This document shows positions 865 to 28,920 of a stretch of 64,000 nucleotides of DNA, in pieces. Each line of letters begins with the position of its first letter. Position 1 is the first letter of the stretch. The notes beneath the pieces were generated by a model. The model was given only the letters and a program-made list of their open reading frames with translations. It was not told the DNA's origin and made no database searches. Source of the stretch: a virus; IMG/VR virus record IMGVR_UViG_3300050821_004371, positions 27,483 to 91,482 of that record, one strand, 5' to 3'. Both the position numbers and the translations under genes were made by a program.

Positions 865-1016
865 CATGCGTAAAACGATCCTGCTCCTTCTCACGCTAGT
901 CATGCTGGTTAACTTCGGGTTTGCTTCGGGCGTCCGCCGTCATTCGGGTGCCCGAAGATCAATCCGGAAAACGTACACGATCCATAAACCTGCCCGTAGA
1001 CATCAGAGGAGATAAC

Positions 1017-1664
1017 ATGAAGTTTGAAATCAAAAATCGTTGGACAGCAGAAGTAATTTTCAGTTCGGATTCCGTAGATTTGCGGGCGTCCGTAACTGCG
1101 GCAGTCAAAACTGGGGCGGACTTGCGGTCGGCGAACTTGCGGTCGGCGGACTTGCGGTCGGCGGACTTGCGGTCGGCGGACTTGCGGTCGGCGGACTTGC
1201 GGTCGGCGAACTTGCGGTCGGCGAACTTGCGGTCGGCGGACTTGTGGTCGGCGGACTTGTGGTCGGCGAACTTGTGGTCGGCGAACTTGCAGTCGGCGGA
1301 CTTGCGGTCGGCGAACTTGCGGTCGGCGAACTTGCAGTCGGCGGACTTGCGGTCGGCGAACTTGCGGTCGGCGAACTTGACCAAAGCACAACTACCCGCG
1401 CCTACAATGGTTCTTATGGCTTCGTGGGGAAGCGTATCAGCGGAGCTGTGCGCCGATCTAATGATGTACGACGCCTCTTGCCACCCGAATCAAAATGCCT
1501 TTGACAAGTGGGCAGCAGGCGGACCTTGCCCGTATGAAGGAGTCAATGTTCAGCGAGCTTGCAATTTCAAAGAACAGAAAGAACTGTGGGGAAAAGGAAA
1601 GTTCCGCAAACCGATCAATTTAATGCTTCGCTTGTTCAAGGAAAAGGGTATCAAATTTGAGTAA
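1017..1664 (+). CDS. pentapeptide repeat protein
   Basis: MKFEIKNRW N-terminus followed by A(D/N)L(R/W/Q)S repeats; GAGGAG RBS before ATG 1017. Confidence 0.9.
   Translation: MKFEIKNRWTAEVIFSSDSVDLRASVTAAVKTGADLRSANLRSADLRSADLRSADLRSADLRSANLRSANLRSADLWSADLWSANLWSANLQSADLRSANLRSANLQSADLRSANLRSANLTKAQLPAPTMVLMASWGSVSAELCADLMMYDASCHPNQNAFDKWAAGGPCPYEGVNVQRACNFKEQKELWGKGKFRKPINLMLRLFKEKGIKFE
1116..1379 (+). repeat. 15-bp tandem repeat GCG(G/A)ACTTG(C/T)(G/A)GTCG, ~17 units, encoding the pentapeptide repeat
   Basis: directly visible tandem array. Confidence 0.95.
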
Positions 1665-23249: not shown

Positions 23250-24840
23250 TTTACAAAATACCAGTCATCGGTTACGTGGTCTCTTTTGTCGAATATCAGC
23301 GGGCAAATCGCGCCTATTGGAAAGTGGCGGATAAAGGCCCTGAATTTCCAGAGTACAACAAAGCGTACGCCGCAACCTGGGTCGCTTTCGATCATACTTT
23401 TGAAGCCTTCTGTTGGACGAGCGGATTTTTAATACTCGCCGCGATAGTTGGCGGAATGGTGTTTCTCCCGTGCATCTAGAAAGAGGAGTCTTTCCGCAAG
23501 ATTTGGTCAGAGGGAAGAACACCCCGAAAGCAGAAGACGAGGTTGAAAAGGAACTGATGCGGATTTATCGGATCGCCCCAGTAGCGTTCTCTGGGGCCGA
23601 TATGACGGGCTTTACAATCGGGGTAAAGCAGGAAGAGATTCTCTGCATTATACAGAAAACAGATTACGAGAAATTGCCCGAGGAATCAAGGCCAACACTG
23701 ATAATGCGGTACATTTTCAAAACTCCCGAGGAACAAGAAGCATTCAGCCTCGGGTCTCGTATTGAGGTCGTCACGGGCTTCGAGCCTTTTGCTACGATGG
23801 TTTATGGAAGCCCGCAATCTTTTGGGGCATACGATGAAAAGACCGGGCAGTACGTTTCGGAGGTTGGTAATTAATGATCCTAGAAATCGGGTATCTGACG
23901 CCGCAGCGGTATACAGATGAAATCAATATACTCAAACGCATCCAGGGCGGGTGTACGCAAATAATTGCGGAAATTTCTCCCGCCGACAGGTCGTTCTTCG
24001 AAAACGAGGGATTTTTCGTCGGCGGGACAGTTTCTCCCAAAACCGGGCCCATCCGTCTCATCGTCAAGAAGAATCTTCGAATAGACATCAGCGAGCCGTT
24101 GTGTACGGAAAATGAATTAACTATCGCGGAATCTGAGTTCCTGAAGATGCTAGCGGCCCGCTATCCTACACCGTATGCGCCTTGCATTGGTTTGTCGCCC
24201 GACTGGAGGACGATAGCCCGAGAATGGTATGAGGGACCTTATAAGCGGGCAATGCAAGAAGTCGGAGATCGAATTGCCCGCAGCGGTGGAGAAAGCCAAC
24301 TAACAATGGTCGGCAATTTCGAGGGGTCCCCAGACGGAACGGACACGTGGAAAATATGAAAGTCTACGTCGTAATGTCGGGTTTCTATGACCAATACGGT
24401 CTCAGTCAAGTCTTCGGGACCCGAGAATCGGCTGAGAAATACATCCAGCGGCACGTTAAAGGCGCATCTTCTTGGGCGGACGAGGTGCAGCCCGGATTCT
24501 ATCACACGATAGAGGCTGTAGTCGGAACCGAATCCCAAGAATCAGAGTTGGTTTATTTATGACATTTATAACAAACGCTAGCATCAAATATCCCTCGGGC
24601 GATGTCCGAGTTGCCTTCGACAGGGAATTGGAAGTGACGGTTGATACCCTATTGGAGAAGCAAGACATCATTCGGATGGCTGCACAAATTCTGGCGGGAG
24701 TTGCGAAATCCGATCAAATCCAGATTCGGGTATCGGCTGGCGATTTGCTGGCTGTTTTGGACCCTCATGCGGAAAAGGAGCAAGAAGCCTGAGATGCCCG
24801 AGATATATTGGTATACGAAAGAAGACATTGATCGTCTCGG

Positions 24841-24870
24841 TAGACGTATATGTCCGAAGTGTGGTAAAAT
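24841..24870 (+). promoter_or_regulatory. candidate promoter upstream of the pentamer arrays
   Basis: TAGACG-18nt-TAAAAT with extended -10 TG. Confidence 0.4.
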
Positions 24871-24921
24871 ATACCGTGAGTGCAAATGTTCCGATGAAGA
24901 AACCTGAGATCAAAATTCCGT

Positions 24922-24980
24922 GACGGGGCGTGTCTAGACGAGACTACACTAGACAGGACGTGACAAGACATGACAAGAAC
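24922..24980 (+). repeat. GAY-NN pentamer array A (11 units; putative guide RNA)
   Basis: GACGG GGCGT GTCTA GACGA GACTA CACTA GACAG GACGT GACAA GACAT GACAA GAAC. Confidence 0.9.
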
Positions 24981-24994
24981 TTTGATTTTTGCTA

Positions 24995-25034
24995 GACTAG
25001 ACATGATTCGACCCGACGAGACCGGACAAGACGA
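24995..25034 (+). repeat. GAY-NN pentamer array B (8 units)
   Basis: GACTA GACAT GATTC GACCC GACGA GACCG GACAA GACGA. Confidence 0.9.
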
Positions 25035-25046
25035 GAAAGGCCAAAA

Positions 25047-25898
25047 GTGAACAGCGAAGCGACGACCTTAAATCATCTGACCGAAATTGAAACCATGCTC
25101 CAAGACTACGAACCTATAGTCAAGCAGAGCATGTTGATTGACGGACAGGCTCGGTATGTAACTTGGGATTTCCGCAAAACCGCGCACGAAACTATTGAGC
25201 TTCTTCAGATCACCGATATTCAGTTCGGGCACAAACAGTGCGACGAACAGAAATTGCACGAATACTTGTCGTGGGTCTTGGCCGCCGATAATCGCTACAT
25301 TCTGCTTGTTGGCGATTTGATTGACGCGGGGCACCAATTGTCCAAGGGAAGTTGCTTCGAGCAGATTGGCGATCCGCAGACCGAAGTTTGGCGGCTTGTA
25401 GAAATTCTCGCCCCGCTTCGGCACCGCATTCTTGGGTATGTCGGCGGCAATCATGAGCGGCGTACGATCCCGACCTTCGGAGATGCTGGGAAGAACATCG
25501 CATCCATTTTGCGGATTCCGTACAGCCCTGGCAAGCAGCACATCGACATCTTGTTCGGGGATCATAAACCGTTCAAGATCACTCTCTGGCATGGTGGGGG
25601 AAGCGGCGGGACAAAAGGCGCTATCGCTAACACGGTATACCGCCTGATGATGCAGGCGGACTCTCAACTGTACCTTCTTGGACACCTTCACCAAGCCGTT
25701 GTGTTGCCCGATGCTCGCGAAACCAGAGACGGGAAAGGCGGGATTAAAATCACTAAGATCATGGGCGCGATGGGCACATCGTTCTTAAAGCATTATGGGA
25801 CGTACGCCGAAGTAATCATGGGAACCCGCCCGCAGACAATTATGATGGCTCGTGCTATAATCGAAAAGAACGGACATTGGGAGTTGACTTTACGCTAG
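25047..25898 (+). CDS. calcineurin-like metallophosphoesterase
   Basis: TDIQFG, VGDLID, GGNHE, WHG, GHLH motifs. Confidence 0.85.
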   Translation: MNSEATTLNHLTEIETMLQDYEPIVKQSMLIDGQARYVTWDFRKTAHETIELLQITDIQFGHKQCDEQKLHEYLSWVLAADNRYILLVGDLIDAGHQLSKGSCFEQIGDPQTEVWRLVEILAPLRHRILGYVGGNHERRTIPTFGDAGKNIASILRIPYSPGKQHIDILFGDHKPFKITLWHGGGSGGTKGAIANTVYRLMMQADSQLYLLGHLHQAVVLPDARETRDGKGGIKITKIMGAMGTSFLKHYGTYAEVIMGTRPQTIMMARAIIEKNGHWELTLR

Positions 25899-25952
25899 AC
25901 TCGTCACGACGCGACGCGACGTGACATGACTGGACAAGACATGACAAGAACC
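25898..25952 (+). repeat. GAY-NN pentamer array C (10 units)
   Basis: GACTC GTCAC GACGC GACGC GACGT GACAT GACTG GACAA GACAT GACAA GAACC. Confidence 0.9.
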
Positions 25953-26142
25953 AATCATAGCGGATTCTTAAAGGGGCTGGAAGCTCAAGCCCAAAAGTTG
26001 ATTCGGGAAGTGAAGCGGGAATCGGGGGTCAAAAAGCCCGGAGATAAGCCTTTGCTTATTGTACCGCCCGATCTCTCATTGCCCGAACGACAAACAATTT
26101 CTGGCGGGGCGAGATTAGTTCGCCCGCCAAACGATGTTTCGT

Positions 26143-26207
26143 GACCGGACTGGACACGACGCGATTAGACAGGACAGGATTTGACTAGACCGGACATGAC
26201 AAGAACC
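26143..26207 (+). repeat. GAY-NN pentamer array D (12 units)
   Basis: GACCG GACTG GACAC GACGC GATTA GACAG GACAG GATTT GACTA GACCG GACAT GACAA GAACC. Confidence 0.9.
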
Positions 26208-26249
26208 AGATTGTACAAAAGCTAAATTCAACCGCTCAAGGAGAGCAAA

Positions 26250-26828
26250 ATGAAAACAGCAAAAGTACGCCTGAAGTCAGCATCCCCGTATGCCCAAGGA
26301 CGGCATTACGCAAACGAAGTTCCTAAGCTTAACAAGGAAGGCGCGGACGCCTACGAGCAGCGCACTTGGGTCAACCGCTTGCACACCACGACCGAAGGCA
26401 AGGTTTTGATTCCGCCCTTCGCGTTCAAGAACGCTTTAGATGATGCCGCCAAGTTCCTCGGCGAGCAGATTCCGGGCAAGGGAAAGTCAACGTACACAAA
26501 ACATTTTCAGGCAGGCGTCATGGTGCTGGACCCGATGGTTCTCAAGACGCATAAGGACGATGTTCGCAAGGAAGCCCGATTCGTGCCCGCAGATGGCAAG
26601 CCCGGAAGCGGCAAGCGGGTTATGAAGTATTTCCCTGTGATCGACTCGTGGGAAGGTGAGGTCGAATTTCTCGTGCTAGACGATACAATCACGTTGCCCG
26701 TGTTGGAGCACCATTTGAAGCAAGCGGGGCAGTTCATCGGCCTCGGCGTATCTCGCCCGCGTAATCGTGGCGTATATGGGCGGTTCATCGTGGAAAAGGT
26801 GGAATGGAAGGATTCTGCAACAGTTTAA
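26250..26828 (+). CDS. stand-alone RAMP/Cas7-like RNA-binding protein associated with pentamer arrays (Vipr-like)
   Basis: N-terminal strand VRLKSASPY; IPPFAFKNAL (IPxxxxK of Cas7-group RAMPs); C-terminal G-rich loop AGQFIGLGVSRPRNRGVYGRF; AAGGAG RBS. Confidence 0.75.
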   Translation: MKTAKVRLKSASPYAQGRHYANEVPKLNKEGADAYEQRTWVNRLHTTTEGKVLIPPFAFKNALDDAAKFLGEQIPGKGKSTYTKHFQAGVMVLDPMVLKTHKDDVRKEARFVPADGKPGSGKRVMKYFPVIDSWEGEVEFLVLDDTITLPVLEHHLKQAGQFIGLGVSRPRNRGVYGRFIVEKVEWKDSATV

Positions 26829-26832
26829 GCGA

Positions 26833-26897
26833 GACGGATCGGGACGCGGCATGGCTTGACTTGATTTGACACGATACGACTTGACGAGACTTGACAC
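26833..26897 (+). repeat. GAY/GGC-NN pentamer array E (13 units)
   Basis: GACGG ATCGG GACGC GGCAT GGCTT GACTT GATTT GACAC GATAC GACTT GACGA GACTT GACAC, then GAGG RBS of recA. Confidence 0.9.
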
Positions 26898-26906
26898 GAG
26901 GTTTTA

Positions 26907-27881
26907 ATGGCTCTCAAAGAAGCTCTCACCCGTTTAGATAAATTGTTTGGGAAAGGCGTTGTCCTTCGCCTTGGAGACCACAAACCCGTTTCCGTTGAAA
27001 GTATAAGCACGGGCATCATGGGACTTGACAACGCCATCGGCATTGGCGGGCTTCCCAAAGGCCGAGTGGTAGAAATCATCGGGGCTGAATCGGGAGGCAA
27101 AACCACCCTCACTTTGTCCGTGATTGCAGAATGCCAAAAAGCAGGGGGTATCGCAGCTTTTATCGATGCCGAGCATAGTTTTGATCCAGTTTGGGCCAAG
27201 AAGCTGGGCGTGGATGTGGACAACCTGCTGGTTTCGCAGCCGGACTATGGCGAGCAGGCTCTCGAAATCGCGGAGAGTTTGATTCGGTCGGGCGATATAG
27301 GAATCGTTGTTGTTGATTCCGTAGCGGCTTTGACGCCAAAAAGCGAGATTGAAGGAGAATTCGGCGACTCGCAGATGGGTTTACAAGCCCGAATGATGTC
27401 GCAGGCAATGCGTAAGCTGACCTCCGCCACTCATAAATCCAACGCAATTCTGGTGATGATAAACCAAATTCGCGAGAAGATTGGCGTTTTTTACGGGTCT
27501 AATGAAACAACTCCTGGTGGGCGGGCCCTACGTTTTTATTCAAGTGTCCGCCTAGACGTACGTCGAGCGTCCACGCTGAAAGATGGGGAAGAACCAAGGG
27601 GCATTCGCGTCAAGGTTAAGGTAATCAAGAATAAGTGTTCGGCTCCGTTTAAGACGGCAGAATTCGATCTGATTTTCGGGCGCGGAATTGACAAAGAAGG
27701 CGATCTCGTTGATCTCTGTACGGAAAACGGAGTGATTTCTAAGAGCGGGGCGTGGTTCGTCACCGAGGGCGGTAGGAAGTTTCAGGGTAGGGATGCCGTG
27801 GTTCAGGCGTTTCGCGATGATTCGGATTATGCGGGCGGGTTCAAAACCAAGTTGCTCGAAAAGCTATGCTCAAAAGGATGA
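26907..27881 (+). CDS. recA: RecA recombinase
   Basis: [21 protein letters not shown]; FIDAEH; [12 protein letters not shown]; DSVAAL; [14 protein letters not shown]; [10 protein letters not shown]; KVIKNK. Confidence 0.97.
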
Positions 27882-27978
27882 AAAATCGCTATCGAGAAGT
27901 AAAAATGCTTCATATCGGGCTAGGCTCGGGCGTCTGGCATTTGATCGATATCGTTTACGTGCTTACGGGCAGGATATT

Positions 27979-28920
27979 ATGAACCTTCACAGCTATCCAA
28001 AAGTTTTTGCTATCGGGCACCGAGCGGTTGCCGACCTGTTTCAGGGCCCCGTGCTCGTTGAGGAAAAGATTGACGGCAGCCAGTTTTCCTTCGGTACGGT
28101 TAACGGACAACTTGAGCTCCGATCCAAAGGCGCGGAACTCTACCCCGACAACCCCGAGAAGATGTTCTCGCTCGGAATCTCTGCCGCCAAAGAACTAATC
28201 CCCGTCCTTCACGATGGCTGGACGTATCGGGCGGAGTTCCTCCAGAAGCCGAAGCATAATTGCATGAAGTACGGGCGGGTGCCTGCCCGCAACGTGATCT
28301 TGTTCGATGTCAATACGGGCGACGAAGTTTATTTAACTCGGGAAGAAAAGGAAGAAGAAGCTGCCCGTATCGGGCTGGAAATAACGCCCGTACTTTATCA
28401 GGGCTTGGTAGACTCGCCCGAAACTCTTTACGGGCTTCTGAAACGAGATAGCATCCTTGGCGGAGGGAAGATCGAAGGAATCGTAGTCAAGAACTACAAT
28501 CAGTTTGGCGCGGACAAGAAAGTCCTGATGGGGAAGTTCGTGACGGAGGAATTCAAGGAAACGCATTCCAAAGAATGGAAAGCCGATAACCCGAGCGTAG
28601 GAGACGTAATAGATCGAATCGTAGCAACTCTGCGGTCAGAAGTCCGCTGGAATAAATCCATTGCCCGGATGAAAGAAGCGGGGGCGCTCGAAAATTCCCC
28701 CAAAGATATCGGAATCTTGCTCAAAGAAATCCAAACAGATATCCGAGCGGAAGAACTTGACTTCATTCAAGGTAAACTGCTAGAGTACGCTCTGCCTCGC
28801 GTCCTGCGGGCGTCCACGGGAGGATTCCCCGAATACTACAAGAAACTGCTGCTTGAATCAGCATTCGAGGAGAAAGAAAGTGCACCATCGTTGGGAGGGT
28901 CGTCACGAGAAGTCAATTGA
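27979..28920 (+). CDS. ATP-dependent RNA ligase (Rnl2-like)
   Basis: SYPK; EEKIDGSQFSF (KxDG); YRAEF; LFDV; IEGIVVK; GKFV. Confidence 0.75.
   Translation: MNLHSYPKVFAIGHRAVADLFQGPVLVEEKIDGSQFSFGTVNGQLELRSKGAELYPDNPEKMFSLGISAAKELIPVLHDGWTYRAEFLQKPKHNCMKYGRVPARNVILFDVNTGDEVYLTREEKEEEAARIGLEITPVLYQGLVDSPETLYGLLKRDSILGGGKIEGIVVKNYNQFGADKKVLMGKFVTEEFKETHSKEWKADNPSVGDVIDRIVATLRSEVRWNKSIARMKEAGALENSPKDIGILLKEIQTDIRAEELDFIQGKLLEYALPRVLRASTGGFPEYYKKLLLESAFEEKESAPSLGGSSREVN

What the first reader, a model, noticed from the sequence alone, without database searches (positions are those of the whole stretch)
24962..26207. Conserved 3' handle GACATGACAAGAAC closes three separate pentamer arrays
Arrays A, C and D have unrelated NN content but all end in GACAT GACAA GAAC, and A and C share GACAA before it. 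Arrays B and E instead run into RBS-like GAAAGG and GAGG. A fixed terminus after a variable body is what a processed guide RNA would need. It argues against simple microsatellite slippage, which would homogenise the units. A TAGACG-18-TAAAAT promoter candidate lies at 24841-24870.
Basis: partly seen in the sequence, partly recalled or inferred. Interest (0 to 1): 0.7.

Follow-up and report, generated by a model that had tools for sequence, protein, structure and literature searches.

The report
Phage VIPR guide-RNA arrays, GAC type
The shared 14-base ending is the fixed 3' tail of guide RNAs of a VIPR system, a CRISPR-like phage system first described in 2026. This copy builds its guides on GAC instead of the published GGY letters.

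Summary
Five same-strand arrays of 9-13 five-base units (GAC + 2 variable bases) lie between window 24922 and 26900. They are the only such arrays in the 91-kb phage genome. Three of them end in an identical GACATGACAAGAAC.

The guide-RNA reading is supported. The 192-aa gene between arrays D and E (26250-26828) is a Vipr protein. Its family profile hits the solved SUSP1 Vipr (E 2.4e-10), and its model (pLDDT 94) has a Cas7/Csm3-like fold.

All 85 viral loci fetched carry a homologue of this gene, and about 75 of them hold clear five-base arrays beside it. Most are GGC-NN; others are GAC, CGC, CTC, GTT, CTT or AGT. Many arrays end in the same kind of tail ([core]AT [core]AA [core]AA G). In two loci whose vipr genes are 99.3% identical, the array differs almost only at the NN positions.

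So this is a VIPR locus (bioRxiv 2026.04.26.720920), a known kind. Four things differ from the published type. Its repeat has A where every consensus in the text I could read has G. Its tail is unstructured and repeat-like. The family's usual accessory gene is absent. The arrays sit between repair genes.

No target was found above chance. RNA ends and function are untested. This scan has noted VIPR loci in at least 254 other genomes.

The parts
24841..24870 (+). sigma-70-like promoter candidate upstream of array A (weak)
   Evidence: TAGACG-18-TAAAAT, 9/12; a consensus match only
24922..24981 (+). vrRNA array A: 12 units (8 exact GAC); fixed tail GACAAGACATGACAAGAAC at 24962-24980
24995..25039 (+). 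vrRNA array B: 9 units, ending GAC-aa GAC-ga GAA-AGG, which doubles as the ribosome-binding site of the phosphoesterase gene
25047..25898 (+). metallophosphoesterase / DNA-repair exonuclease-like gene flanked by arrays B and C; a neighbour, not shown to belong to the system
   Evidence: PF00149, phrog_7339; no homologue in 85 related vipr loci
25833..25861 (+). sigma-70-like promoter candidate (extended -10) about 37 nt upstream of array C
   Evidence: 10/12; a consensus match only
25898..25952 (+). vrRNA array C: 11 units (9 exact GAC); tail 25933-25951; the first unit overlaps the TAG stop of the phosphoesterase gene
25941..26144 (+). conserved 67-aa gene whose start codon (ATG ACA AGA AC = MTRT) lies inside the tail of array C; function unknown
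   Evidence: three homologues, 81-84% identical, all starting MTRT, with one in-frame indel; no Pfam or PHROG match
26143..26207 (+). vrRNA array D: 13 units (10 exact GAC); tail 26193-26206; the first unit overlaps the TGA stop of the 67-aa gene
26250..26828 (+). vipr gene: 192-aa single-RRM RAMP with a thumb (about 113-123) and a glycine-rich loop (G164-F179)
   Evidence: SUSP1 Vipr, E 2.4e-10; pLDDT 94; type VII Cas7 / Csm3 fold
26833..26900 (+). vrRNA array E: 13 units (8 GAC, 2 GGC, 2 GAT, 1 ATC), ending GAC-ac GAGG, the ribosome-binding site of recA
26907..27881 (+). recA gene downstream of array E; a neighbour, not shown to belong to the system
   Evidence: PF00154, 417 bits; absent from related vipr loci

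Best explanation
This is a phage VIPR locus (Viral Interference Programmable Repeat). The 192-aa Vipr protein is inferred to bind one protomer per pentamer along each of five array transcripts. It would hold the constant GAC triplet and expose the two variable bases. Together the exposed bases would read a double-stranded DNA target in a gapped NN-x-NN-x code and silence its transcription, probably in a competing phage or other mobile element. The shared GAC-aa GAC-at GAC-aa GAA-C ending is the invariable 3' tail of the guide. [quoted passage not shown] In arrays B and E it has drifted into the ribosome-binding sites of the next genes. Shown here: the arrays, the identity and fold of the protein, family-wide linkage of protein and arrays, and NN hypervariability with a fixed core and tail. 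Inferred from the published SUSP1 and P. fulva work: RNA processing, RNP assembly, DNA targeting and silencing.
For: Five phased arrays occur only here in the genome. The Vipr family profile hits PDB 36pp 'SUSP1 Vipr protein' at E 2.4e-10. The AF2 model has pLDDT 94, and its best fold matches are type VII Cas7 and Csm3. The family has more than 1178 members and no Pfam name. All 85 IMG/VR loci carry a vipr homologue, and about 75 of them hold clear period-5 arrays around it, mostly canonical GGC-NN. GAC-NN is clear in L009, L010, L049, L064 and L068. Many of the arrays inspected end in the tail [core]AT [core]AA [core]AA G, often followed by T-rich sequence. L009 and L010 have vipr genes 99.3% identical, yet the downstream array differs almost only at NN, with GAC cores and tail identical. 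L016 versus L018 and L019 have vipr 100% identical and arrays that differ. There is no self-target in the phage's own genome, as published for other VIPRs. The published mechanism is in 10.64898/2026.04.26.720920.720927 and 10.64898/2026.10.15.759431.
Against: There are no RNA data for this locus. No natural target was found above chance. The core is GAC, not GGY. The ~170-aa gene that follows vipr in 75 of 85 related loci is absent from this genome. The tail has no predicted structure, unlike the SUSP1 pseudoknot. The arrays lie inside an operon and overlap stop codons, ribosome-binding sites and one start codon, so a cis role on translation cannot be excluded.
Confidence: 0.88

Rival explanations
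1. The arrays are cis-acting translational operators on the polycistronic mRNA. A ring or filament protein binds the GAC triplets spaced by two bases, as TRAP binds (G/U)AG-NN repeats, and blocks ribosome entry at the overlapping start sites of the phosphoesterase, 67-aa, vipr and recA genes. Vipr itself could be that protein, so this could be a second function and need not exclude guide RNAs.
For: Every array abuts or overlaps a translation start. B and E run into GAAAGG and GAGG ribosome-binding sites. The tail of C contains the ATG of a conserved 67-aa gene. The ATG in the tail of A opens a 26-codon frame that runs across array B and stops at TGA 25048-25050, overlapping the GTG start at 25047 (read).
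Against: No TRAP-like family was found in the ten neighbouring proteins. Operators for fixed genes have no need for hypervariable NN positions, yet NN changes between near-identical phages. In relatives, arrays stand in long tandem runs far from any start codon, for example six units in L001 3500-3985. The neighbouring genes differ completely between loci.
Confidence: 0.07
2. The arrays are double-stranded DNA sites (iterons, origin or partition-like repeats) bound by a DNA-binding protein every half helical turn.
For: The arrays lie in the replication and recombination gene arm. All genes here share one strand, so the strand bias of the arrays alone does not prove an RNA role.
Against: The linked conserved protein is a RAMP RNA-binding fold, not a DNA-binding fold. 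Homologous systems have been shown to make RNAs from such tracts. Iterons do not keep three bases and randomise two.
Confidence: 0.03
3. The arrays are neutral microsatellite-like slippage products with no function.
For: None beyond the short period.
Against: Slippage homogenises units, but here NN differs between most neighbouring units while GAC is kept. The arrays are confined to one locus. They are linked to vipr in loci that share no other gene.
Confidence: 0.01

Closest known systems
VIPR systems (Vipr + vrRNA): type II of Escherichia phage SUSP1 and a Pseudomonas fulva prophage (bioRxiv 10.64898/2026.04.26.720920, .720927; 10.64898/2026.10.15.759431)
   Same: Both are phage-encoded. Both have a lone ~20-kDa single-RRM RAMP with a thumb and a G-loop. 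Intergenic tracts of 9-16 pentamers, with three fixed and two hypervariable bases, flank the gene. The tracts end in an invariable 3' tail, and there is no self-targeting.
   Different: The core is G-A-C, not G-G-Y. The repeat forms named in the text I could read (YNNGG, NNNGG, YNNNG, NNNNG) all keep the second G, which is A here; the figure logos were not readable. The tail is a short, unstructured, repeat-like run, not a hairpin or pseudoknot. Sequence similarity to SUSP1 Vipr covers only the C-terminal half. The SUSP1 residues that hold G2 (R138, W178) align to F128 and S168 here. No vap-like gene was recognised. The arrays are interleaved with phosphoesterase and recA genes. I could not assign which of the seven published types this family belongs to.
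Class 1 CRISPR Cas7 backbone (type VII Cas7, type III Csm3/Cmr4)
   Same: The RAMP fold is shared (Foldseek E 1e-9 to 1e-6). Both follow the logic of a protein filament on a guide RNA with periodically sequestered bases and a fixed handle.
   Different: There are no CRISPR repeats or spacers, no other cas genes and no adaptation genes. The period is 5 nt, not 6. The guide information is spread over dinucleotides.
TRAP (trp RNA-binding attenuation protein) sites, (G/U)AG-NN x 9-11
   Same: Both have triplets spaced by two bases on mRNA that overlap ribosome-binding sites.
   Different: No TRAP homologue was found. The spacer bases are hypervariable between strains, and the linked protein is a RAMP.

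Membership tests
VIPR | A Vipr protein: a minimal single-RRM RAMP with a thumb and a glycine-rich loop, homologous to characterised Vipr | tested here: met
   Profile versus PDB 36pp SUSP1 Vipr, E 2.4e-10. AF2 pLDDT 94 with a Cas7/Csm3 fold. G-loop GLGVSRPRNRGVYGRF.
VIPR | Tandem pentanucleotide repeats with a conserved trinucleotide alternating with variable NN, about 9-16 units, in intergenic DNA flanking vipr | tested here: met
   Five arrays of 9-13 units on both sides of vipr. They are unique in the genome.
VIPR | Repeat consensus GGY/NN (YNNGG) or the listed relaxed forms NNNGG, YNNNG, NNNNG | tested here: not met
   The core is GAC, written CNNGA in the published register. 42 of 59 units are exact GAC and only 3 are GGC. 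The same protein family mostly uses GGC, so this is a scaffold variant within the family.
VIPR | Invariable 3' tail after the variable tract | tested here: met
   An identical 14-19 nt terminus closes A, C and D, with degenerate forms in B and E. A homologous tail occurs in the related loci inspected. No fold is predicted for it (z -1.4 to +0.5).
VIPR | NN positions hypervariable between close relatives while core and tail are kept | tested here: met
   Shown within the family: L009 versus L010 (GAC type), and L016 versus L018 and L019. It was not testable for this phage's own nearest relatives because their DNA could not be fetched.
VIPR | Accessory vap gene next to vipr (typical, not universal) | tested here: not met
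   The ~170-aa gene that follows vipr in 75 of 85 related loci has no tblastn match in the 91-kb genome. The 67-aa gene is an untested substitute.
VIPR | Natural DNA targets that obey the 1-nt skip rule | tested here: inconclusive
   There is no self-target. Exact scans gave 0-1 hits per database, at chance level. Only one hit (L089) is wobble-phased.
VIPR | Arrays expressed as discrete small RNAs that co-purify with Vipr | not testable with these tools
   Needs small-RNA sequencing and a pull-down.
CRISPR-Cas | A repeat-spacer array and a cas gene set | tested here: not met
   No repeat array with a CRISPR-like period appears in the window. The neighbouring genes are a phosphoesterase, recA and an RNA ligase.
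TRAP-type attenuation | A TRAP protein (PF02081) | tested here: not met
   No match in the ten neighbouring proteins. The rest of the genome was not scanned.

The most novel reading that the evidence does not exclude
Within one Vipr family the scaffold triplet has switched repeatedly: GGC to GAC, CGC, CTC, GTT, CTT and AGT. Matching changes occur at RNA-contacting residues. This would create mutually orthogonal VIPR 'channels', so a phage's Vipr cannot be loaded with a rival's or a satellite's guides, which is the hijacking shown for SUSP1. This phage would be a natural GAC-specific channel, set by V167/S168 in the G-loop and A15 in strand 1. In all 40 GGC-type proteins the residues at the first and last of these positions are R and S.
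Probability: 0.3. Interest if true: 0.7.

Novelty: new variant of a known kind. Interest (0 to 1): 0.5.

Why it matters
VIPR was described only in 2026, and its published code is GGY/NN. Here A replaces the G that every published consensus I could read keeps. Close relatives use at least six other triplets, so the scaffold itself seems to evolve. The matching G-loop changes point to residues that may set scaffold specificity. This could be useful for building orthogonal programmable DNA binders. It also bears on how phages might avoid having their Vipr hijacked by foreign guides. The short repeat-like tail suggests that a structured cap is not essential.

Tried and rejected
- **TRAP-like operator:** this was my first working idea. 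I dropped it as the main reading once the RAMP identity and the family-wide data came in.
- **Rfam:** a scan of 23500-28500 at E<=10 gave only noise and no hammerhead.
- **Nucleotide search:** the phage collection matched only recA.
- **Self-targeting:** scans with skip lengths 0-2 gave nothing above shuffled-guide nulls.
- **Guide D:** exact NN-x scans gave 0 hits in viral contigs, 1 in genomes (L086) and 1 in metagenomes (L087). Neither hit is wobble-phased and neither extends into the tail.
- **Guides A, B, C, E:** viral contigs gave 1, 0, 1 and 0 hits, as expected by chance for 18 specified bases. L089 5823-5848 is wobble-phased in a 1553-aa frame, 19 of 22 bases, and is only a weak lead.
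- **Related vipr loci:** none is targeted by these guides.
- **Tree of Vipr proteins:** too poorly resolved to count independent scaffold switches.

Full report
**Observation.** The + strand between window 24922 and 26900 holds five arrays of five-base units, each a GAC triplet plus two variable bases.
- A: 24922-24981
- B: 24995-25039
- C: 25898-25952
- D: 26143-26207
- E: 26833-26900

They hold 9-13 units each, and 42 of 59 units are exact GAC. Shuffles of the window give about 0.02 such arrays. A scan of all 64 triplets at periods 4-7 on both strands of the whole 91,482-bp phage genome finds only these five.

GACATGACAAGAAC occurs exactly three times, closing A, C and D. In A and C it is preceded by GACAA. 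B and E end GAC-ga GAA-AGG and GAC-ac GAGG. So all five end in a GAR unit, and B and E carry degenerate forms of the same terminus that also serve as ribosome-binding sites. The arrays fill the intergenic gaps closely. The first units of C and D overlap the stop codons of the upstream genes.

**The genes.** The neighbours are:
- a metallophosphoesterase / repair-exonuclease-like gene, 25047-25898
- a 67-aa gene, 25941-26144
- a 192-aa gene, 26250-26828 (phrog_4652, no Pfam)
- recA, 26907-27881
- an RNA ligase

The 192-aa protein belongs to a family of more than 1178 proteins of about 185 aa at roughly 60% identity. A profile of 34 members hits one solved structure, 36pp 'SUSP1 Vipr protein', at E 2.4e-10 over the C-terminal half, including the glycine-rich loop. 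An AlphaFold model (pLDDT 94, pTM 0.87) matches type VII Cas7 and Csm3/Cmr4 best.

**The literature.** Three 2026 preprints define VIPR. Vipr is a minimal RAMP. vrRNAs are 9-16 GGY/NN pentamers followed by an invariable 3' tail. One protomer binds per repeat. The NN dinucleotides read double-stranded DNA while skipping every third base. The result is transcriptional silencing of rival phages and satellites. The methods name YNNGG, NNNGG, YNNNG and NNNNG as repeat forms. The figure logos are not held, so I cannot exclude that a GAC form is drawn there.

**Comparative test.** I fetched 85 IMG/VR loci encoding homologues 51-63% identical to the window protein. About 75 of them hold clear period-5 arrays around vipr.
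- Most have the core GGC.
- GAC is clear in L009, L010, L049, L064 and L068.
- CGC or CAC occurs in about ten loci.
- CTC, GTT, CTT and AGT occur in a few.
- The third base is always a pyrimidine.

Many of the arrays inspected end in [core]AT [core]AA [core]AA G, often followed by T-rich sequence, or in CACAACACAACGCAACG in the CGC loci. Examples are GGCAT GACAA GACAA GACAA GACAA GAG in L007 and GACAT GACAA GACAA GAC in L009. The window's handle GACAA GACAT GACAA GAAC is this tail.

L009 and L010 have vipr genes 99.3% identical. Their downstream arrays differ almost only at NN positions, while the GAC cores, the tail and the flank are identical. L016 versus L018 and L019 have identical vipr genes and different arrays. 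This is the pattern expected of programmable guides.

**What differs here.**
1. The scaffold is GAC, with A at the position that all the named published forms keep as G.
2. The tail is short and repeat-like, with no predicted structure (z -1.4 to +0.5). SUSP1 has a capping pseudoknot.
3. A ~170-aa gene follows vipr in 75 of 85 related loci. It has no match in this genome.
4. The phosphoesterase, 67-aa and recA genes occur in none of the related loci.
5. The ATG inside the tail of array C is the start of the 67-aa gene. That gene is real: three homologues at 81-84% identity all begin MTRT, and one has an in-frame indel. The guide's 3' end and a translation start therefore share the same bases. 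A side effect of Vipr binding on translation is possible but untested.

**Specificity residues (inference).** SUSP1 D177, W178 and R179 in the G-loop align to V167, S168 and R169 here. The thumb residue R138 aligns to F128.
- All 40 GGC-type proteins have Arg at the position of V167 and Ser at the position of A15.
- Five of six strong GAC loci have F, M or V at the first position.
- Four of six have G or A at the second position.
- Five of six CGC loci change the thumb-base Pro to Asn.

Exceptions exist. L049 is GAC with both canonical residues, and the GTT loci keep Arg. The tree is too poorly resolved to count independent events. This is therefore a lead, not a code.

**Targets.** No self-target exists under skip lengths 0-2. 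Exact NN-x scans of the three public collections gave 0-1 hits each, which is the chance level. None is convincing. The host is unknown. What the guides silence therefore remains open.

**Verdict.** The system belongs to an already described kind (VIPR). This scan has noted VIPR loci in at least 254 other genomes, some with other scaffolds. Within that kind this is a scaffold and tail variant with an unusual gene context.

Noticed in passing
window 921-1664 (+), tandem repeat 1115-1379: A 15-nt unit repeated 17.7 times encodes a run of A(D/N)LRS pentapeptide repeats in a 247-aa frame. It looks like a pentapeptide-repeat protein, which could be a DNA mimic.
   Followed up: partly
window 24969-25050 (+): The ATG in the tail of array A opens a 26-codon frame that runs across array B. 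It stops at a TGA overlapping the GTG start of the phosphoesterase gene (GTGA). This could be translational coupling or chance.
   Followed up: no
L001 3500-3985: About six tandem vrRNA-like units lie upstream of vipr. Each has a variable NNC(G/A)C body, the fixed end CACAACACAACGCAACG and a T-containing spacer. This is a much larger array than in the window.
   Followed up: partly
L001-L085, about 90 nt downstream of vipr: A conserved ~170-aa protein with no Pfam or PHROG name follows vipr in 75 of 85 loci. It is often itself followed by another array. It is a likely accessory (vap-like) gene of this Vipr family.
   Followed up: partly
L089 5823-5848 (-): Guide A matches 19 of 22 informative bases, wobble-phased, inside a 1553-aa viral frame. 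The database-wide expectation is about one such hit, so this is only a weak target lead.
   Followed up: partly
window 24795-24907 (+): A 37-aa frame with CxxC...CxC spacing (zinc-ribbon-like) lies directly upstream of array A. It has no family match.
   Followed up: no
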